From an uncultured Gammaproteobacteria bacterium (GTDB lineage Bacteria > Patescibacteriota > Patescibacteriia > JACPHY01): a DNA stretch of 21,888 nucleotides. The DNA lies in contig CAZPCZ010000017.1 of the NCBI GenBank assembly GCA_964585225.1, positions 1 through 21,888 on the forward strand, written 5' to 3'. The notes under the pieces are model-generated. The model saw only the letters and a list, made by a program, of their open reading frames with translations. It was not told where the DNA came from and searched no databases. The position numbers were made by a program, and so were the translations under genes. Numbering within the stretch: the first letter of the stretch is position 1; every line of letters starts with the position of its first letter. Positions 10,333 to 19,910 of the stretch are shown here, piece after piece.

Positions 10333-10337
10333 CGAAA

Positions 10338-10473
10338 AATTTCTAATTTCTAATTCCTAATGACTAATCAAATCCCAATACCTCGAATACCAAAATCCAG
10401 AAATAAGCTGTTTGGTTATTGGTCATTGGAGCTTGGTCATTGATTAGAAATTAGAAATTCGTCATTAGAAATT
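10338..10473. repeat. AT-rich nested palindromic island (arms aatttctaatttctaattcctaatgactaatca / tgattagaaattagaaattcgtcattagaaatt; inner ccaatacc...ggttattgg, ggtcattgg, ggtcattga)
   Basis: Roughly 30% GC against a >65% GC background. Imperfect long inverted repeats made of ttctaat units. Lies between the gyrB stop and the channel-gene start. Confidence 0.5.
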
Positions 10474-10480
10474 TAGTTGC

Positions 10481-12640
10481 TCAAATATCCAAATTCTTCA
10501 CCGTCTTCGCATGCGTCTGGATGAATTTCTTCCTCGGCTCCACCTCCGACCCCATGAGGACGTCGAAGATTGCGTCCGCTTTTTGCGCGTCATCCACGGT
10601 CACGCGCTTCAAGACGCGTCGAGCAGGGTCCATGGTCGTCTCCCACAGCTGTTCCGGGTTCATCTCGCCTAACCCTTTGTACCGCTGGATGGAAGCCTTG
10701 ATTTCGGTGGCGATTTCCTGTTTTGCGTCCTCTTTCTCCCCCTCCCTCCGGGAGGGGGAGGTGTGGGGGTGGGGCGCTTTCCTGCGTTGTTGCATCTCCT
10801 TCAGGATTCGATCCCGCTCGTCATCGCTGTACGCGTACCGCACCTCCTTCCCGACCTGGATGCGGTAGAGCGGCGGTTGTGCGATGTACACGTGCCCCTG
10901 TCGGACGAGCTCCGAGAAGTACCGCCAGAAGAGCGTGAGGAGGAGTGTGCGGATGTGCGATCCGTCCACGTCCGCGTCGGTCGCGATGATGATGCGGTCG
11001 TAACGGAGCTTCGCAATTTCGAACTGCTCGCCGATGTTCGTCCCGAGCGCGATGATGAGCGACTTGATTTCGTTGTTCGCGAGCATCTTGTCGAGCCGCG
11101 CGCGTTCGACGTTGAGGATCTTCCCGCGCAATGGGAGGATCGCCTGGAACTCGCGATTGCGTCCCGATTTCGCACTGCCTCCGGCCGAATCTCCTTCCAC
11201 AATGAACATCTCCGACGCCTTCGGGTCCCGCGAGGAGCAGTCTGCGAGCTTTCCCGGCAACGTGAGCCCCTCGAGCACGCCCTTGCGGAGCACAGTCTCC
11301 CGCGCGGCCTTCGCGGCCGCCCGCGCCTGCGCGGTGAGCAGGCACCGCGCGATGATCGCCTCGGCGTTCCGCGGGTGTTCCTCGAGGAACGCTGCGAACG
11401 CGTCGCCGAACACCGTCGCGACCGCGGTCTGCGCTTCGGGGTTCCCGAGCTTCGCCTTCGTCTGCCCCTCGAACTGGGGGTCTTTCACCTTCACGCTCAC
11501 GATCGCGGTGAGCCCCTCGCGGACGTCCTCACCGCTCAGGTTCTCGTCCTTCTCCTTCAGGTACCCCTTCGCGCGCGCGTACGCGTTGAGCGTCCGCGTG
11601 AGGGCAGTGCGGAAGCCCTGGATATGCGTGCCACCTTCGGGGTTCACGATGTTGTTCGCGAACGCGAGGACATTCTCGCGGACGTCCTTGTTGTATTGGA
11701 GTGCAACCTCCACCTGGATGCCATCAGATTCCTTATCGACGTAGCACACCGCATCGTGCGCGGGGTCCTTGCGTTGGTTCAAGTGGCGGACGAACGACGC
11801 GATCCCACCCTCGAAGTGGAAGGTGTACGTGCGGAGTGGTAGCACCGTGGCTGCCGCTTTTGGATCGAAGGCGCTCGCGAGGAGCTGTTGCCCGAGCGCC
11901 GACTCCTCCCGGAGGTCCTCAATGATGTACGTGACACCCTTCGTGAGGTACGCCTGCTGTCGGATGTGGTCGAGGATGGTCTGACGGTCAAACCGAATTC
12001 CTTCCGTGAAGATGACCGGATCCGGGTGGAACGTGACCGCGGTCCCAGTGCCGGCAGACGGCTGCCTGCCGATCGCCTTCACCTTCGCCCTCGGGACGCC
12101 GCGTTGGTACTCCTGCACCCAGAGTTGGCCATCGCGCTTCACCTCGGCCCGGAGCAACGTCGAGAGCGCGTTGACGACCGAGACACCGACGCCGTGGAGC
12201 CCGCCGGACACCTTGTACCCGCCGCCGCCGAACTTGCCACCGGCATGGAGCTTCGTCATGACGAGCTCGAGCGCGCTCGTCTTGAATTGCGGGTGCGGGT
12301 CCACCGGGATGCCGCGACCGTCGTCAATCACCTGGACGTGGTCATCGGGGAGAAGGCGGATCGTGATGCGCTTCGCGTACCCGGCCATCGCCTCGTCGGT
12401 GCCGTTGTCCACCACCTCATTGACGAGGTGGTGGAGCCCGGGGGATCCGGTCGTGCCGATGTACATCCCCGGCCGCTTGCGCACCGGATCGAGTCCCTCG
12501 AGCACCGTGATCTGCTGCGCACGGTACTCAGTCGCACTCTTCTCGCGTTTCTCTCCCACTCCCTTGGAGGGGGAGCGGGCGTGCCCCGCGGAGCCTTGGC
12601 GAAGTGGGGAGGGGGTGGACCCTCGTTTGCCCTTTGCCAT
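10481..12640 (-). CDS. gyrB: DNA gyrase subunit B
   Basis: Unmistakable GyrB motifs (VLEGLDPVRKRPGMYIGTT, HHLVNEVVDN, IQRYKGLGEMNPEQLWETTMDP, QTHAKTVKNLDI). The start is uncertain: the ATG at 12640 (MAKGKRG...) gives a ~40-aa basic Ser/Pro-rich N-terminal extension, an upstream ATG at 12688 is also open, and an internal GTG near 12559 would give a canonical-length N-terminus. Confidence 0.93.
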   Translation of the reverse strand: MAKGKRGSTPSPLRQGSAGHARSPSKGVGEKREKSATEYRAQQITVLEGLDPVRKRPGMYIGTTGSPGLHHLVNEVVDNGTDEAMAGYAKRITIRLLPDDHVQVIDDGRGIPVDPHPQFKTSALELVMTKLHAGGKFGGGGYKVSGGLHGVGVSVVNALSTLLRAEVKRDGQLWVQEYQRGVPRAKVKAIGRQPSAGTGTAVTFHPDPVIFTEGIRFDRQTILDHIRQQAYLTKGVTYIIEDLREESALGQQLLASAFDPKAAATVLPLRTYTFHFEGGIASFVRHLNQRKDPAHDAVCYVDKESDGIQVEVALQYNKDVRENVLAFANNIVNPEGGTHIQGFRTALTRTLNAYARAKGYLKEKDENLSGEDVREGLTAIVSVKVKDPQFEGQTKAKLGNPEAQTAVATVFGDAFAAFLEEHPRNAEAIIARCLLTAQARAAAKAARETVLRKGVLEGLTLPGKLADCSSRDPKASEMFIVEGDSAGGSAKSGRNREFQAILPLRGKILNVERARLDKMLANNEIKSLIIALGTNIGEQFEIAKLRYDRIIIATDADVDGSHIRTLLLTLFWRYFSELVRQGHVYIAQPPLYRIQVGKEVRYAYSDDERDRILKEMQQRRKAPHPHTSPSRREGEKEDAKQEIATEIKASIQRYKGLGEMNPEQLWETTMDPARRVLKRVTVDDAQKADAIFDVLMGSEVEPRKKFIQTHAKTVKNLDI

Positions 12641-12911
12641 ATCAGACCATCGAATCAAACAGAGAGGCCCTGGCTGTGGGCCGCTCATGCTTACCTTGAG
12701 GATACCATAGAGAGTCGCGGTATTCCAGTGTGCTCAGCCAGGATTTCCACATCTCCAATGGCTCCATTGACGGAAGTAAATTCGTCAATGCTTGACGATT
12801 CCTTCGATTTGTGTAAAGGTGTAGGCGCTCAGGGTGGCTGAGTGGGTTCGTTCCAGAGAGGACCGCTCGTTCACAACACCACACGCAACCGGATTGCGAG
12901 GAGGCACCATC

Positions 12912-16922: not shown

Positions 16923-17162
16923 ATGTTCAAGTTGCTGCTGGCCGCCGTCGGCGGCGCCGCCACCGCCGCTTCGCTCTCCGAGGAGACGCAGGGCAAGCTG
17001 AAGGCCGCCGCGCGCGGCGTGCGTGACGACCTCGGCGCCGCCACGAAGGACGCCCGCGCCGCCGCCTCCCGCGAGTGGGGCCGCGTGAAGCGCTTCGTCC
17101 GCGAGGAGATCCTCGAGGAGCCGCCGCGCCCGTCCCGCTCCGACCCGCCCGCGCAGGCCTAG
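16923..17162 (+). CDS. Small Ala-rich protein, possibly YtxH-like stress protein (79 aa)
   Basis: An ATG 7 nt after gaaggagga is preferred over the upstream start. The N-terminus MFKLLLAAVGGAATAASLSEETQGKLK resembles the YtxH hydrophobic-Gly/Ala start. The rest is a charged helical region. Confidence 0.45.
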   Translation: MFKLLLAAVGGAATAASLSEETQGKLKAAARGVRDDLGAATKDARAAASREWGRVKRFVREEILEEPPRPSRSDPPAQA

Positions 17163-17270
17163 TGGTCTGCCGACCACCAGCCGACATCGCCTCCCATTGA
17201 GACCTCGACCTCGCGTCGGGGTCTTCCGCTTTCTCCTTACGCGGGATGGCGGTACCCTGAGAGCAGACCA

Positions 17271-17370
17271 GGATTGTTTCATTGTCTCATTGTTTCATTG
17301 CTCCCACCCCCTCTCGCTCCCCTTCGTGGGAAGGGGAGAACAATGTAACAATGGAACAATGTAGCAATGG
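17271..17370. repeat. Miniature TIR element: three TTTCATTG-like octamers, then the hairpin ctcccctt-cgtgg-gaaggggag, then three inverted octamers. No ORF.
   Basis: Left arm ggattgtttcattgtctcattgtttcattg matches the reverse complement of the right arm caatgtaacaatggaacaatgtagcaatgg at ~22 of 30 positions. AT-rich against the GC-rich background. The arms are near-identical to the TIRs flanking the four-helix-bundle gene. Confidence 0.6.
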
Positions 17371-17376
17371 TCGCGT

Positions 17377-18309
17377 ATGGCTGATCCACAGCTTGGTGGG
17401 CCAAATCAGGTTTCGGAACGGCAGCTCTCTTGGGGGCTGTGGTTTGTGGCGCACCGCGAGTCCCTGAAGAAGCTCGGCTACGGCGTCCTCATTGCCGTTG
17501 CGGCCGTGAGCTGGGGGTACACGCTCTGGGGCATCACGGACCATTTCCTCCTCCGAGGCCTCGACCTCCGGCGGGCGATCCAGCGTGACCTCGCGACGCG
17601 GCAGAACCCTCGTGCGGCGATCATTCAACGACAGCGACCGAAGCCCCTCGAGATCGCGGAGGTCCATCTCATCCCGAACGGGGGGTCGAGTTTCGATGTC
17701 GCCGCGCGGGTTGTGAACCCGAATCCTCGGTGGCTCGCGACCATTGAGTACCAACTCGAGGTTCCTGGGGCTCCGGTGGAACCGATGCGAACGCTCCTCC
17801 TGCCTGGACGCGACCGTTGGCTCGTTCGACTCAACGCAGAATCGAAAGCGAATCCGTCCACTGCGGTGCTCAAACTCAACCGGACCGATTGGGATCGCCT
17901 CTCCCACCTCGATGTGACGGACCCGAAGCGATTCATGGACGAGCGCCTCAATATTGAGATTATGAAGTCCGCATTCGTGCCGCCGCGTGAGCTTGCGCTC
18001 GGCGCGATTGCTCCGCCAATCCCGGGTGCGAGCTCCGGCCCTACCTCGACCACACCGACCACCGTGTCGCGCGCGACGTTCGAGGTTGTGAACCGGAGTG
18101 CATATGGGCTCCGGGATCTCGAGCTTGCGGTCTTCCTCCGTCGGAGCGGTGGGATCATCGCGGTGAACCGCATCGTGCTCAACGACCTGCGCGCCGGCGA
18201 GGCACGCGCCGCTGCGGCGACGTGGTTCCACTCACTCGGTCTCGTGCAGTCCGTCGAGGTGATTCCATACGTGAACGTGTTTGATCCGAGAACATTCATT
18301 GAACTTTGA
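17377..18309 (+). CDS. Hypothetical membrane-anchored protein with two beta-rich extracytoplasmic repeats
   Basis: 310-aa ORF with one TM (LGYGVLIAVAAVSWGYTLWGI). Starts 7 nt after the miniature element and ends 1 nt before the next TIR. No family recognised. Confidence 0.65.
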   Translation: MADPQLGGPNQVSERQLSWGLWFVAHRESLKKLGYGVLIAVAAVSWGYTLWGITDHFLLRGLDLRRAIQRDLATRQNPRAAIIQRQRPKPLEIAEVHLIPNGGSSFDVAARVVNPNPRWLATIEYQLEVPGAPVEPMRTLLLPGRDRWLVRLNAESKANPSTAVLKLNRTDWDRLSHLDVTDPKRFMDERLNIEIMKSAFVPPRELALGAIAPPIPGASSGPTSTTPTTVSRATFEVVNRSAYGLRDLELAVFLRRSGGIIAVNRIVLNDLRAGEARAAAATWFHSLGLVQSVEVIPYVNVFDPRTFIEL

Positions 18310-18310
18310 T

Positions 18311-18760
18311 CACTGTTTCATTGTCCCATTGCTTCATTGTCATGCCGATCGTATCTCCAGAAACGAAAAAGTACCTGCAGTTGAACGACATTGATGCGTA
18401 CAGAGTTGCATTCCAGCTATCGAACGAAGTTTGGGGCATCGTCATTCGTTGGGATCACTTCGCCAAGGATACGGTAGGTAAACAGTGGGCGCGCGCCGTT
18501 GATTCTATCTCAGCGAACATTGCGGAGGGGTTCGGACGTTACACAAAAAGAGATAAAATCAACTTTTACCGATATAGTTTCGGTTCTGTAAAGGAATCAT
18601 TGGATTGGAATGAGAAGGCGAAAGTGAGGGGGCTGATCTCAGCAGAACAACACCAACACGTCTACACCGCATTGAACCAGCTACCGCGGTTGATCAACCA
18701 ACTCATACAGTTCACGAACGAGCGCCTCCAGCAATGAAACAATGAAGCCATGAAACAATG
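18311..18760 (+). mobile_element. TIR-bounded cassette carrying a four-helix-bundle (23S rRNA IVS-family) gene; arms cactgtttcattgtcccattgcttcattg / caatgaaacaatgaagccatgaaacaatg
   Basis: The two 29-nt arms are inverted (~23/29 match) and each is made of three TTTCATTG-like octamers. The enclosed gene is markedly AT-rich relative to its neighbours. Arms match those of the 17271-17370 miniature element. Confidence 0.55.
18342..18737 (+). CDS. Four-helix-bundle protein (PF05635 / TIGR02436, 23S rRNA-intervening-sequence protein family)
   Basis: ...SISANIAEGFGRYTKRDKINFYRYSFGSVKESLDWNE... matches the family hallmark SIPSNIAEGxxRxSxKEFxxFLxIAxGSxxEL. An ATG 12 codons inside the TTG-start ORF is preferred. 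Confidence 0.85.
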   Translation: MPIVSPETKKYLQLNDIDAYRVAFQLSNEVWGIVIRWDHFAKDTVGKQWARAVDSISANIAEGFGRYTKRDKINFYRYSFGSVKESLDWNEKAKVRGLISAEQHQHVYTALNQLPRLINQLIQFTNERLQQ

Positions 18761-18773
18761 AGCGCTGATTATT

Positions 18774-19910
18774 GTGCCGCGTTTTCCCTCAGCACTACGT
18801 TCCGTGGATGGGTTGTTGATCACCGCTGTCGCATTGATGGCGGTGTTCGGTTGCATTGGGCTCGCAAGCTTGGGACTCCGGAGCACCCCACCAAATTTTT
18901 CGCTTCTCACACGCCAGCTCATCGCGATCGGCATCGGCGTCGTCGCGCTCGTGGTCGTTGCCCGTATTGACCACCACGCATGGGAACGGTGGTGGCCAGC
19001 GGTTGCGGTCGCCGTCGGTATCCTCCTTATCGGTGTCCTCCTCGTTGGCACCCGTATTCGCGGGACGCGCGGGTGGTTTGCGCTCGGTGGGTGGACGCTC
19101 CAGCCGGTTGAGTTCGCAAAGATCGGGCTCATCCTCCTCCAGGCGGTGTACTTCCGCCGTCGGGCGCGCCTCCTCGATCGGTTTCGAACCGTCCTCGAGA
19201 GTGCAGGGATCACCGCAGCAGTCGTGGTGCCCGTCCTCCTCCAGCCGGACCTCGGTTCCGCGGTGATCCTGATCCTCGTTTGGCTCGGCATGCTCTTCGT
19301 CATCGGTCTTCGGAAGAACCACCTCATCGCCATCGTCGCGGTCGCTCTTGTCACGGTCGCCATCGGGTGGCAGTTCTTCCTCCACCCGTACCAGCGCGAG
19401 CGGATCCTCACGTTCCTCGATCCCCACCGTGATCCCCAAGGCGCTGGCTACAACCAACGCCAGGCCGTGATCGCGGTCGGTGCCGGCGGACTCATCGGTC
19501 GCGGGTTCGGGCAGGGAACGCAATCGCAGCTCCGGTTCCTCCCGGAGGCGCAGTCCGACTTCCTCCCGGCGGTGTTCGCGGAGGAGTTCGGATTCGTCGG
19601 GCTCATGTTCCTCGTCGCGGCAGTGGTCGTCATCCTCCTCCGCTGCGCGTCGGTCGCGCGACGTTGCCCTGACGACTTCTCCGCTGCCGTTGTCATGGGA
19701 TTCGCGCTCCTCTTCGGCATCCAAGCGTTCCTGAACCTGGGGATGAACCTTGGGGGTGTGCCGGTGCTCGGGATCCCGTTCCCATTCGTGAGCGCGGGCG
19801 GGAGCGCGGTGGTCGCGTTCGGGCTCGGGCTCGGGATCGTGAGCGGGATTGCGAGGCGGACCCCCCGCGCGGAGCGGTCAACATACGAATTCGAAGTCAT
19901 CCCGAGCTAA
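18774..19910 (+). CDS. SEDS-family peptidoglycan glycosyltransferase (FtsW/RodA/SpoVE)
   Basis: Ten predicted TM helices. Conserved ...GAGYNQRQAVIAVGAGGLIGRGFGQGTQSQLRFLPEAQSDFLPAVFAEEFGFVG... and ...VPVLGIPFPFVSAGGSA... . The GTG start is as given in the ORF track. Confidence 0.85.
   Translation: MPRFPSALRSVDGLLITAVALMAVFGCIGLASLGLRSTPPNFSLLTRQLIAIGIGVVALVVVARIDHHAWERWWPAVAVAVGILLIGVLLVGTRIRGTRGWFALGGWTLQPVEFAKIGLILLQAVYFRRRARLLDRFRTVLESAGITAAVVVPVLLQPDLGSAVILILVWLGMLFVIGLRKNHLIAIVAVALVTVAIGWQFFLHPYQRERILTFLDPHRDPQGAGYNQRQAVIAVGAGGLIGRGFGQGTQSQLRFLPEAQSDFLPAVFAEEFGFVGLMFLVAAVVVILLRCASVARRCPDDFSAAVVMGFALLFGIQAFLNLGMNLGGVPVLGIPFPFVSAGGSAVVAFGLGLGIVSGIARRTPRAERSTYEFEVIPS

What the first reader, a model, noticed from the sequence alone, without database searches (positions are those of the whole stretch)
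17271..18760. Family of CATTG-octamer TIR elements: an empty miniature copy and a copy carrying an AT-rich four-helix-bundle (23S rRNA IVS-family) gene, possibly forming a composite around a hypothetical membrane-protein gene
Two elements 1 kb apart share nearly identical arms made of three TTTCATTG-like octamers (t/ctgtttcattgtc[t/c]cattg[t/c]ttcattg), each paired with an inverted copy. The miniature element (17271-17370) encloses only a GC hairpin and sits immediately 5' of the 17377 ATG. The second (18311-18760) encloses a gene with the PF05635 four-helix-bundle hallmark whose GC content is far below the host's. Its arms overlap the stop codon of the upstream gene, its own stop, and the 5' end of the SEDS gene region. 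The outermost arms of the two elements are also inverted relative to each other, so the 310-aa gene in between could be cargo of a composite unit. In 23S rRNA, homologous ORFs sit in intervening sequences excised by RNase III at flanking inverted repeats. Here the same gene type appears in an mRNA context with octamer-array arms, which suggests an IVS-like RNA-processing cassette or a protein-binding iteron array (for example for the encoded 4HB protein). I am not aware of such TIR architecture being described for these genes.
Basis: partly seen in the sequence, partly recalled or inferred. Interest (0 to 1): 0.75.

Follow-up and report, generated by a model that had tools for sequence, protein, structure and literature searches.

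The report
IVS-like gene cassette with octamer-array arms
A small four-helix-bundle gene of the kind known from insertions in bacterial 23S rRNA sits here between two ordinary genes, bracketed by inverted arrays of an 8-base repeat; the same layout surrounds its relatives in many bacterial phyla, which points to a widespread and largely undescribed selfish cassette with gene-less miniature copies.

Summary
Four arms (17272-17300, 17341-17369, 18311-18339, 18732-18761) each hold four nnnCATTG octamers. One pair encloses a GC hairpin. The other encloses a 131-aa PF05635/TIGR02436 gene with GC 0.48, against 0.63-0.65 for the host genes.

It is not local. In 80 genome loci from several phyla, about 80% of homologues have 7-9-nt arrays on each flank, against 7% of background windows. 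The unit is YTNNATTG, period 8, typically four per arm. More distant PF05635 clades carry different arm motifs. Gene-less hairpin minis with the same unit types occur nearby.

The gene is co-oriented with its neighbours in 88% of loci and fits tightly between them. It is under strong purifying selection (dN/dS 0.04-0.07). Relatives of this Uhrbacteria-like host have the same gene junction empty, filled by the same cassette, or filled by a different mini.

The layout matches the Coxiella 23S rRNA intervening sequence, which has an RNase III-cut stem and heptamer repeats. Here, however, mismatches between arms show no G:U bias and unit order is not mirrored. The conserved motif, not base pairing, therefore looks like the main constraint.

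The composite-transposon idea is rejected. How the cassette moves is unknown.

The parts
17272..17300 (+). Left arm of the gene-less mini element E1: GATTG TTT CATTG TCT CATTG TTT CATTG (4 units, period 8)
17301..17340 (+). Loop of E1: a GC-rich hairpin (CTCCCC..GGGGAG). It is homologous to spacer sequence in relatives L084 and L092, which have no CATTG arms. Similar CU/GA hairpins fill the loops of minis in L012.
17341..17369 (+). Right arm of E1: CAATG TAA CAATG GAA CAATG TAG CAATG. The last unit lies where relatives have a conserved TACAATGG box 8 nt upstream of the ATG of the 310-aa gene.
18311..18339 (+). Left arm of the gene-bearing cassette E2: CACTG TTT CATTG TCC CATTG CTT CATTG. It starts 2 nt after the stop of the 310-aa gene and ends 2 nt before the cassette's ATG.
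18342..18737 (+). 131-aa four-helix-bundle protein (PF05635 / TIGR02436). pI 9.4. GC 0.48. dN/dS 0.04-0.07 against orthologous copies. AF2 model of four helices (pLDDT 91), closest to the pentameric 2GSC and 2RLD structures, then Avd.
18732..18761 (+). Right arm of E2: CAATG AAA CAATG AAG CCATG AAA CAATG A. The first unit contains the last Gln codon and the TGA stop of the 4HB gene.
10337..10474 (.). Third gene-less inverted-array mini, with a different heptamer unit (AATTTCT / AGAAATT, with TTGGTCA-type units inside). It lies between the gyrB stop and the start of the TrkA_N gene, both on the minus strand. Same architecture, different arm family.

Best explanation
18311-18761 is a compact selfish cassette of the same kind as the ORF-bearing intervening sequences of 23S rRNA. 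It consists of a PF05635 four-helix-bundle gene bracketed by two oppositely oriented arrays of a cognate short motif, here YTNNATTG with four units per arm. It sits in sense orientation at the junction of two co-transcribed host genes. 17272-17369 is a gene-less derivative of the same family.

Shown:
- The gene-plus-arms architecture is conserved across phyla, and different protein clades carry different arm motifs.
- The cassette lies in sense orientation with tight spacing and no promoter-like site.
- The protein is under strong purifying selection.
- The site is present, absent or differently filled among relatives, and the cassette's phylogeny disagrees with the host's.
- Gene-less minis share the unit types of the 4HB arms in the same genome.

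Inferred:
- The gene is expressed from host read-through transcripts.
- The arms are primarily arrays of recognition sites for a sequence-specific binder, most economically the basic, probably pentameric 4HB protein itself. That protein is a structural relative of Avd, which sits on RNA in the DGR reverse-transcriptase complex.
- Because the two arrays are inverted, they can also pair in the transcript into an imperfect duplex of about 30 bp. This would be an RNase III-type substrate, as demonstrated for the rRNA versions, and cutting it would separate the cassette from the host mRNA.
- The minis are non-autonomous copies, analogous to REPINs relative to their RAYT gene.

The step that copies the element into new sites is not identified.
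For: Association across genomes:
- A periodic array is present on 61/79 upstream and 61/75 downstream flanks of homologues in 80 genome loci, against 7% of background windows.
- There are 289 ATTG/CAAT-type arrays in 1.2 Mb, against 42 in shuffled sequence.
- Unit consensus is YTNNATTG. 383 of 415 core spacings are 8 nt. The modal number is 4 units per arm.
- Arms of the same locus are more complementary than arms of different loci (13.7 vs 9.4, p 7e-12).

Other PF05635 clades have their own arm motifs:
- GARACGA (L024, with a related purine-rich form in L022), CTCAAAA (L082) and nnACTAG (L075).
- AAACTCA/TGAGTTT in 4 of 4 further loci, including one between trpB and trpA.
- GACAGAT in the Coxiella IVS.

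Placement and selection:
- The ORF is co-oriented with its upstream neighbour in 69/78 loci and with its downstream neighbour in 61/69 (p about 1e-11 to 1e-12). Median spacers are 54 and 44 nt.
- No sigma-70-like promoter or terminator in 17100-18900.
- dN/dS 0.04-0.07 and pI 9.4.
- The fold is closest to the pentameric 2GSC and 2RLD, then to Avd and the Avd chains of the DGR ribonucleoprotein.

Mobility over evolutionary time:
- The site is empty in L087/L088 and L089/L090, where the stop and start codons overlap or abut. L093 has only a short spacer.
- The same cassette is present in L085/L086 and L092.
- L091 has it with a different right junction.
- L084 has a different mini at the same site.
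- The window's 4HB gene is closer to that of L085 (92% aa; 0.72 identity at 4-fold sites, against 0.43-0.49 for three of the four host genes compared and 0.62 for the fourth, the 111-aa gene) than to that of L092 (82%; 0.24). The host genes show the opposite order.

Minis:
- 20 gene-less L-loop-R pairs occur in the gene-first loci.
- Their units match the 4HB arms of the same locus (0.28 vs 0.075, p 0.003).

Folding:
- E1 z -6.0. The E2 arms pair in both the MFE and centroid structures.
Against: - No direct evidence for RNA cleavage, for protein binding, or for any transposition chemistry.
- No recombinase, reverse transcriptase or nuclease is encoded in the window.
- No target-site duplication could be recognised.
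- An array-first sample of metagenome contigs (80 loci with 4 x CATTG at 8-nt spacing) contained no PF05635 gene at all. 29 of 70 testable arrays had an inverted partner within 260 nt. Such arrays are therefore mostly found away from any 4HB gene, and dependence on the protein is unproven.
- The E1 loop is homologous to host spacer sequence that lacks arms in L084 and L092. A simple 'insertion of a foreign mini' does not explain this.
- Evidence against pairing as the selected property: G:U-type and A:C-type mismatches are equally frequent (62 vs 72), and the order of variable units is not mirrored between arms (2.571 vs 2.568 in permutations).
Confidence: 0.55

Rival explanations
1. A DNA transposon family (autonomous copy plus MITE-like minis). 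The arms are subterminal arrays of binding sites, as at Tn7/Mu or CACTA element ends. An unidentified enzyme encoded elsewhere moves the element, and the 4HB protein acts as the end-binding accessory factor.
For: - Empty, filled and differently filled states of the same site occur among relatives.
- A second case of site re-use is seen in Ignavibacteria-type genomes.
- Gene-less minis share unit types with the 4HB arms of the same genome.
- Mismatches between arms show no RNA-type bias, and unit order is not mirrored. Both fit arrays of DNA sites.
- The gene is 60-70% identical across phyla.
Against: - No transposase is present in the window or recognisably linked to the cassette.
- No target-site duplication was found.
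- The strong sense-orientation bias of the ORF (88%) is not expected for a symmetric DNA element with its own expression signals.
- An 8-bp spacing places successive sites on different faces of duplex DNA.
Confidence: 0.2
2. A purely RNA-level processing cassette. All that matters is that the arms pair into a duplex cut by RNase III, exactly as in rRNA intervening sequences. The repeat structure is a by-product of slippage.
For: - Precedent in the Coxiella and other 23S IVSs: a stem cut by RNase III, with heptamer repeats at the 5' end.
- PF05635 ORFs occur in rRNA insertions of CPR bacteria.
- Predicted stems for E1, E2 and the third mini.
- Sense orientation within operons.
Against: - G:U-type mismatches are not favoured over A:C-type on the sense strand (62 vs 72).
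- There is no mirrored complementarity at the variable unit positions.
- The core ATTGYT is conserved across phyla, which pairing alone does not require.
- None of the 80 homologous loci lies within 10 kb of an rRNA gene.
Confidence: 0.15
3. The arrays are host intergenic elements (REP-like stabilisers, terminators or slippage-prone microsatellites) unrelated to the gene. The 4HB gene merely tends to land in or next to them.
For: - Array-first sampling found many gene-less arrays and hairpins and no 4HB gene.
- Array copy number is unstable, ranging from 3 to 18 units.
- The E1 arms surround a host-derived hairpin.
Against: - Arms hug both ends of the ORF and even overlap its start and stop codons.
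- The arm motif changes with the protein clade.
- Empty sites in relatives have neither arms nor gene.
- Enrichment next to the gene is about ten-fold over background.
Confidence: 0.07
4. The two elements form a composite transposon that carries the 310-aa membrane-protein gene as cargo.
For: The outermost arms (17273-17302 and 18730-18759) are 90% complementary.
Against: - The 310-aa gene has host GC (0.63).
- It lies between the same neighbours in all eight related lineages examined, whether they have no element, only the 4HB cassette, or a different mini.
- E1 occurs only in the window's own lineage.
Confidence: 0.02

Closest known systems
ORF-containing intervening sequences (IVS) of 23S rRNA (Leptospira, Coxiella burnetii, Xanthomonas, Brucella; 'S23p' ORF)
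   Same: - The same protein family (PF05635).
- The ORF is bracketed by terminal inverted repeats.
- In Coxiella, tandem heptamers of variable copy number lie directly upstream of the ATG, inside a 28-bp stem that RNase III cuts (PMC4990558).
- Distribution is sporadic and suggests horizontal transfer.
- ORF-less short versions also exist in rRNA (own knowledge: Salmonella and other enterobacterial IVSs of about 100 nt).
   Different: - This cassette lies between protein-coding genes of an operon, not in rRNA helix 25 or 45. None of 80 homologous loci is near rRNA.
- The arms are regular arrays of a phylum-spanning 8-nt motif.
- The protein is under strong purifying selection, whereas the Coxiella ORF is decaying and probably not translated.
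- Processing by RNase III has not been tested here.
REPIN/RAYT systems (REP elements and their TnpA(REP) gene)
   Same: A single protein gene flanked by inverted copies of a short repeat that also occurs as many gene-less hairpin-forming copies in intergenic regions of the same genome (comparison from own knowledge).
   Different: - RAYTs are HUH (Y1) transposase relatives with known DNA-cleaving chemistry. The 4HB protein has no known catalytic motif.
- REPs are single palindromes, not tandem arrays of 7-8-nt units.
Avd, the accessory variability determinant of diversity-generating retroelements
   Same: - The same fold and superfamily. The Foldseek list runs 2GSC and 2RLD, then 4DWL and the Avd chains of the DGR RNP 8UB7.
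- Small and basic; the solved relatives are pentamers.
- Avd contacts nucleic acid next to its own gene.
   Different: - No reverse transcriptase or template/variable repeats in the window.
- Sequence similarity to Avd is negligible (6-10% identity in the structural alignments).
- No relatives of this clade in IMG/VR viral contigs.
Correia/NEMIS elements of Neisseria and similar bacterial MITEs
   Same: The minis are 80-140-nt intergenic inverted-repeat elements that are co-transcribed with flanking genes. Correia elements are cut by RNase III when transcribed (own knowledge).
   Different: Correia elements have unique 26-bp TIRs and a TA target duplication. Here the arms are arrays of short units and no duplication is seen.

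Membership tests
PF05635 / TIGR02436 four-helix-bundle ('23S rRNA-intervening sequence protein') family | Sequence match above the curated cut-offs | tested here: met
   Pfam 77.8 bits against a cut-off of 33.8. TIGR02436 80.2 bits against 24.
PF05635 / TIGR02436 four-helix-bundle ('23S rRNA-intervening sequence protein') family | Four-helix-bundle fold like the solved members | tested here: met
   AF2 model with helices 18-34, 39-65, 69-95 and 101-130, pLDDT 91. Best PDB matches are 2GSC (TM 0.80/0.91) and 2RLD, then Avd 4DWL.
PF05635 / TIGR02436 four-helix-bundle ('23S rRNA-intervening sequence protein') family | Homopentameric ring | not testable with these tools
   Inferred only. 2GSC and 2RLD are deposited with five chains each, and the Xanthomonas protein is described as a homopentamer in PMC4990558.
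rRNA intervening sequence (IVS) | Located within a 23S (or 16S) rRNA gene, replacing a helix tip | tested here: not met
   The cassette lies between a 310-aa gene and rodA. No rRNA similarity was found in the window or in any of the related loci.
rRNA intervening sequence (IVS) | Terminal inverted repeats able to form a long stem that encloses the ORF | tested here: met
   30-nt arms, 80% complementary. The arms pair in the MFE and centroid folds.
rRNA intervening sequence (IVS) | Excision from the transcript by RNase III | not testable with these tools
   Needs RNA-end mapping in a carrier organism.
Diversity-generating retroelement (Avd component) | Adjacent reverse transcriptase and template/variable repeat pair | tested here: not met
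   No RT domain in any sizeable ORF of the window. The only repeats are the short arrays.
Classical TIR transposon / MITE | Target-site duplication flanking the terminal repeats | tested here: not met
   Comparison of filled and empty sites and of about 30 minis shows no consistent direct duplication. TGAT on both sides of E2 in the window is absent from the orthologous copy in L085.
Classical TIR transposon / MITE | Element-encoded or linked transposase | tested here: not met
   The only ORF is the 131-aa 4HB protein. It has no hit in PHROGs or PADLOC, and its only Pfam hit is PF05635, with no transposase family.
Classical TIR transposon / MITE | Presence/absence polymorphism at orthologous sites | tested here: met
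   Empty in L087/L088 and L089/L090; L093 has only a short spacer. Filled in the window, L085/L086, L091 and L092. Filled with another mini in L084.

The most novel reading that the evidence does not exclude
PF05635 four-helix-bundle proteins are sequence-specific, ring-shaped binders of tandem 7-8-nt arrays. Together with those arrays they form a previously unrecognised, phylum-spanning class of mobile cassette with abundant non-autonomous minis. The long-puzzling ORF-bearing rRNA intervening sequences would be only the special case that landed in rRNA, and the DGR Avd protein a domesticated relative. Each protein clade would recognise its own motif. The element would propagate by a mechanism that uses no classical transposase, for example array-guided recombination or a reverse-transcriptase-assisted step.
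Probability: 0.3. Interest if true: 0.9.

Novelty: new variant of a known kind. Interest (0 to 1): 0.74.

Why it matters
The origin, spread and ORF function of bacterial rRNA intervening sequences have been open since the early 1990s. PF05635 is a very large family without a known function (4586 clusters at 50% identity match this profile).

This analysis shows three things:
- The gene travels with clade-specific inverted arrays of short tandem repeats.
- It sits in sense orientation at operon junctions in many phyla.
- Gene-less copies of the arms accompany it.

This turns a vague 'hypothetical protein' into a defined genetic element with testable parts: a protein, a cognate motif, minis, and empty versus filled sites. 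Several carriers are cultured Bacteroidota, so binding, processing and mobility experiments are feasible. The result also offers a non-DGR context in which to understand Avd-like proteins. Finally, it flags a class of intergenic hairpins that genome annotation currently ignores.

Tried and rejected
- Composite transposon around the 310-aa gene: rejected by synteny and GC.
- RNA-strand test on arm mismatches: no G:U excess.
- Mirror-order test of variable unit positions: no signal.
- Target-site duplications: none consistent.
- rRNA context: no rRNA near any of the 80 loci.
- Rfam: only spurious sub-threshold microRNA-type hairpin hits.
- Sigma-70 promoter and intrinsic terminator scans: nothing in or around the elements.
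- PHROGs and PADLOC: no hit.
- IMG/VR viral contigs: no relatives of this clade.
- PDB by single sequence: no hit. By profile: weak hits to 2RLD and 2GSC.
- Literature searches for PF05635, TIGR02436, S23p, four helix bundle protein, and literal array sequences found only the Coxiella IVS paper, a CPR rRNA-insertion paper and a DGR paper. None describes array-flanked copies outside rRNA. The 1993 Leptospira IVS paper could not be retrieved.
- Array-first metagenome scan: intended to test the association from the repeat side. It returned no 4HB genes, mostly gene-less hairpins, and some plain tandem repeats. This limits the claim that the arrays depend on the gene.
- A resemblance of A-rich right-arm units (TTTAACAAT) to the rrn boxA antitermination motif was considered. 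It was dropped as probably compositional and was not tested.
Full report
**1. What is in the window**

The region reads as follows.
- 17272-17300: GATTG TTT CATTG TCT CATTG TTT CATTG.
- 17301-17340: a 40-nt GC-rich hairpin.
- 17341-17369: CAATG TAA CAATG GAA CAATG TAG CAATG.
- 17377: the ATG of a 310-aa ORF, which ends at 18309.
- 18311-18339: CACTG TTT CATTG TCC CATTG CTT CATTG.
- 18342-18737: a 131-aa ORF.
- 18732-18761: CAATG AAA CAATG AAG CCATG AAA CAATG A.

A search for three CATTG at 8-nt spacing (up to 2 mismatches) finds 8 overlapping hits. All lie in these four arms, against 0.02 expected by chance.

The 131-aa ORF matches PF05635 (E 9e-22) and TIGR02436 (E 1e-22). The next gene is a RodA/FtsW-type SEDS protein. 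The small gene has GC 0.48 and GC3 0.58, against 0.62-0.65 and 0.73-0.85 for its four neighbours.

**2. Source organism and the same site in relatives**

The exact protein occurs only on short metagenome contigs with the same gene order. Its closest named relatives are from Candidatus Uhrbacteria and other Patescibacteria.

Homologues of the 310-aa gene led to eight related lineages with the same synteny: gyrB ... 310-aa gene, rodA, a 111-aa gene, L25. The junction between the 310-aa gene and rodA has the following states.
- Empty, with overlapping or abutting stop and start codons (TGATG or ATGA), in L087/L088 (62% identity of the 310-aa protein) and L089/L090 (47%). L093 (45%) has only a 50-nt spacer.
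- Occupied by the same CATTG cassette in L092 (82%) and L085/L086 (72%).
- Occupied in L091 (51%), where the right arm runs directly into the rodA ATG. That is a different right junction.
- Occupied in L084 (85%) by a different gene-less hairpin, made of AAACTCT heptamers and their imperfect complements.

The cassette's phylogeny disagrees with the host's.
- The window's 4HB gene is 92% identical in protein to that of L085. Identity at four-fold degenerate sites is 0.72, where three of the four flanking host genes show 0.43-0.49 and the fourth, the 111-aa gene, shows 0.62 (34/47 against 0.47, p 4e-4).
- It is only 82% identical, with 0.24 at four-fold sites, to that of L092. Yet L092's host genes are the closer ones.
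- Window-to-L085 identity peaks over the cassette and decays into both flanks.

The element is therefore gained, lost or exchanged on evolutionary time scales, and repeatedly at the same gene junction.

The 310-aa gene is an ordinary syntenic host gene. The 'composite' reading is rejected.

**3. The architecture is general**

A scan of one genome per species returned 80 loci encoding homologues at 42-72% identity. They come from Patescibacteria, Bacteroidota (including cultured Pontibacter, Hymenobacter, Pedobacter, Larkinella, Dyadobacter and Mucilaginibacter), Ignavibacteria, Gammaproteobacteria, Planctomycetota and Omnitrophota. None lies within 10 kb of an rRNA gene.

Reading their flanks shows, almost everywhere, a T-rich array of nnnnATTG units just upstream of the ATG. 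The inverted CAATnnnn array starts at or over the stop codon.

Quantified:
- 61/79 upstream and 61/75 downstream flanks hold a strict 7-9-nt periodic array, against 7% of background 150-nt windows.
- ATTG/CAAT-type arrays number 289 in 1.2 Mb, against 42 after block shuffling.
- The unit consensus is (T/C)T N N A T T G. 383 of 415 successive cores are 8 nt apart. Four units per arm is the mode on both sides.
- 53 left-to-right arm pairs enclose a 4HB ORF, with a median gap of 393 nt.

More distant PF05635 clades show the same plan with other motifs.
- GARACGA/TCGTYTC in L024, and a related purine-rich form in L022.
- CTCAAAA plus CTAAAAA in L082.
- nnACTAG/CTAGnnn in L075.
- A second large Patescibacteria clade sampled separately: AAACTCA units that run through the start codon (AATGTCA), and 5-7 GTTTTGA-type units after the stop. 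This held in 4 of 4 distinct loci, one of them between trpB and trpA.

The published Coxiella 23S IVS has 2-3 GACAGAT heptamers, variable between strains. They lie directly upstream of the S23p ATG, inside a 28-bp terminal-inverted-repeat stem that RNase III cuts (PMC4990558). PF05635 ORFs have also been noted in 16S and 23S insertions of CPR bacteria (PMC11270868).

The window's cassette is therefore an IVS-type unit in a protein-coding operon, and the short-repeat arms are a family trait.

**4. Gene-less minis**

Twenty left-array, short-loop, right-array hairpins without a gene occur in the gene-first loci. Loops are 6-114 nt, and the set includes the window's E1.

Units of minis not adjacent to a 4HB gene match that locus's 4HB arm units far more often than those of other loci (0.28 vs 0.075, p 0.003). 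In the window the two left arms are 92% identical.

Two minis in L012 carry a CU/GA hairpin in the loop that resembles E1's loop.

The window holds a third mini at 10337-10474, between gyrB and a TrkA_N gene. It is built of AATTTCT/AGAAATT heptamers.

L084's mini at the rodA junction resembles the AAACTCA clade's arms.

A caveat concerns E1. Its GC hairpin is homologous to spacer sequence in L084 and L092 that has no CATTG arms. Its last right-arm unit coincides with a conserved TACAATGG box that relatives carry 8 nt upstream of the ATG. E1 is therefore not a simple insertion of a foreign block. How arms come to flank a host hairpin is unexplained.

**5. Evidence on mechanism**

(a) Strand. 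The arms are symmetric, but the ORF is not randomly oriented. It is co-directional with the upstream neighbour in 69/78 loci and with the downstream neighbour in 61/69. Median spacers are 54 and 44 nt, and the arms essentially fill them (p about 1e-11 to 1e-12). No promoter- or terminator-like site is found around the window's elements. This fits expression from host read-through transcripts.

(b) Protein. dN/dS is 0.04-0.07 and pI 9.4. The AF2 model has four helices (pLDDT 91). It is closest to the pentameric XCC0516 and BT_0352 structures, then to Avd and the Avd chains in the DGR reverse-transcriptase ribonucleoprotein. The protein is functional and belongs to a superfamily in which one member is known to sit on nucleic acid.

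(c) Pairing versus motif. The arms can pair: E1 -49.8 kcal/mol with z -6.0, and the E2 arms pair in the MFE and centroid folds. Same-locus arms are more complementary than arms from different loci. However:
- Across 64 loci the non-Watson-Crick positions show no excess of G:U-compatible over A:C mismatches on the sense strand (62 vs 72).
- The order of the variable unit positions in one arm is not mirrored in the other (2.571 matches per unit observed, 2.568 after permuting unit order).
- The core ATTGYT is conserved across phyla.

The arms therefore behave as two independent arrays of one oriented motif, and their complementarity is largely a consequence of that. This favours recognition of the motif by a factor. 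The only factor that travels with the motif is the 4HB protein.

(d) Site re-use. Besides the window/L084 case, the junction between a 181-aa gene (...HHADFVSFDPFKA*) and a 656-aa gene (MSQTLIEKIAQKFA...) behaves the same way. It holds a window-clade cassette in L007 and L014. In L022 and L024 it holds a very different PF05635 clade with GARACGA arms, and the host flanks are nearly identical.

(e) Against a tight dependence on the gene. An array-first scan of metagenome contigs for four CATTG at 8-nt spacing returned 80 loci. None has a PF05635 ORF, even with a broad family profile that finds 101 hits in the gene-first loci. 29 of 70 testable arrays have an inverted partner within 260 nt, against 3/75 on the control side. 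Many are from GC-rich soil contigs with RRTCATTG units, and some are plain tandem repeats.

(f) No reverse transcriptase, transposase or nuclease is encoded in the window. No target-site duplication is visible. The clade is absent from IMG/VR.

**6. Interpretation**

Best supported. This is an IVS-type selfish cassette and its non-autonomous derivative. It is embedded in sense at operon junctions, and its arms are arrays of a cognate recognition motif that can also form an RNase III-type duplex.

The architecture, its breadth, the sense embedding, the selection on the protein and the site polymorphism are shown. Read-through expression, binding by the 4HB pentamer, RNase III processing and the mini-to-master relationship are inferred. 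The copying mechanism is unknown.

Rivals, in decreasing order of probability:
- a DNA transposon with subterminal binding-site arrays, moved in trans;
- a purely structural RNA processing cassette;
- host hairpins unrelated to the gene;
- the composite transposon (rejected).

**7. Novelty**

ORF-bearing rRNA IVSs and the Coxiella heptamers are published. I found no description of array-flanked PF05635 cassettes in protein-coding operons, of clade-specific arm motifs, or of the associated minis. The library searched lacks most subscription journals, so prior description cannot be excluded.

I rate this a new variant of a known kind, of high interest. It gives concrete, testable handles on two old questions: what IVS ORFs do, and how IVSs spread. 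It does the same for a very large protein family of unknown function (4586 clusters at 50% identity).

Noticed in passing
window 10337-10474: A third gene-less inverted-array hairpin built of 7-nt units (AATTTCT x3, AATGACT ... TTGGTCA, AGAAATT). It lies in the 148-nt spacer between the gyrB stop and the start of a TrkA_N-domain gene on the minus strand. Arms are 42 nt and 79% complementary. The fold is -41.9 kcal/mol, z -4.9. The architecture matches the CATTG elements, but the arm family is different and its gene-bearing partner was not found.
   Followed up: partly
L084 4927-5040 (Uhrbacteria GCA_016205885.1), orthologous to window 18310-18770: The same junction between the 310-aa gene and rodA holds a different gene-less hairpin: AAACTCT x4, then a loop, then TTTAGGG/TTTAGTG units. 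Its arms resemble those of a second PF05635 clade (AAACTCA/TGAGTTT). Its mismatches are G:U-compatible on the sense strand.
   Followed up: partly
L007 5582-5959, L014 2167-2538, L022 1175-1537, L024 7536-7898: A second case of site re-use. One junction in Ignavibacteria-type genomes, with nearly identical host flanks, carries either a window-clade cassette (YTNNATTG arms) or a very different PF05635 clade with GARACGA heptamer arms.
   Followed up: partly
window 17356-17376, compared with L084 3980-4000, L085 2312-2332, L087 3981-4000, L089 3977-4000: Relatives carry a conserved gcgcTACAATGG box 8 nt upstream of the ATG of the 310-aa gene. This looks like a -10 element for a leaderless or near-leaderless mRNA. 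In the window the last unit of the E1 right arm (gTAGCAATGG) occupies exactly this position, so the element either preserved or supplies this signal.
   Followed up: no
window 17301-17340; L012 5783-5819 and 14646-14696; L092 27-55: A pyrimidine-run / purine-run GC hairpin (CTCCCC..GGGGAG, CTCTCCTT..AAGGAGAGGG) recurs in Patescibacteria spacers. It appears sometimes inside CATTG-type arms and sometimes alone. It may be a separate small element or an anti-Shine-Dalgarno-like structure.
   Followed up: no
L097, L105, L108, L119, L120, L140, L145 and others (metagenome contigs, GC 0.56-0.64): Abundant gene-less hairpins in GC-rich soil and peat contigs. Their arms are made of RRTCATTG octamers (GATTGAGT CATTGAGA CATTG ... 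CAATGACT CAATG). The outermost unit is typically GATTG/AATTG on the left and CAATC/CAATT on the right. No PF05635 gene lies on these contigs.
   Followed up: partly
L163 10114-10200: A CATTG octamer array is followed directly by an array of CGATTTT/CGACTTT heptamers. Two different array families abut.
   Followed up: no
L219 1501-1893: A PF05635 cassette of the AAACTCA clade sits between trpB (PALP domain) and trpA in a tryptophan operon. This illustrates that these cassettes are tolerated inside essential biosynthetic operons.
   Followed up: no
L084 1-1085, compared with window 10481-12688: The gyrB gene of the close relative L084 carries an intein (PF14890; 1171-aa product). The window's gyrB (735 aa) has none.
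   Followed up: no
window 18774-18806: The rodA start is ambiguous. The longest ORF starts at GTG 18774, but relatives align from the codon corresponding to GTG 18804 (ATGGAT(T/G)GG in L087, L091 and L084). The low-GC tract of the cassette extends about 60-100 nt into this 5' region.
   Followed up: partly
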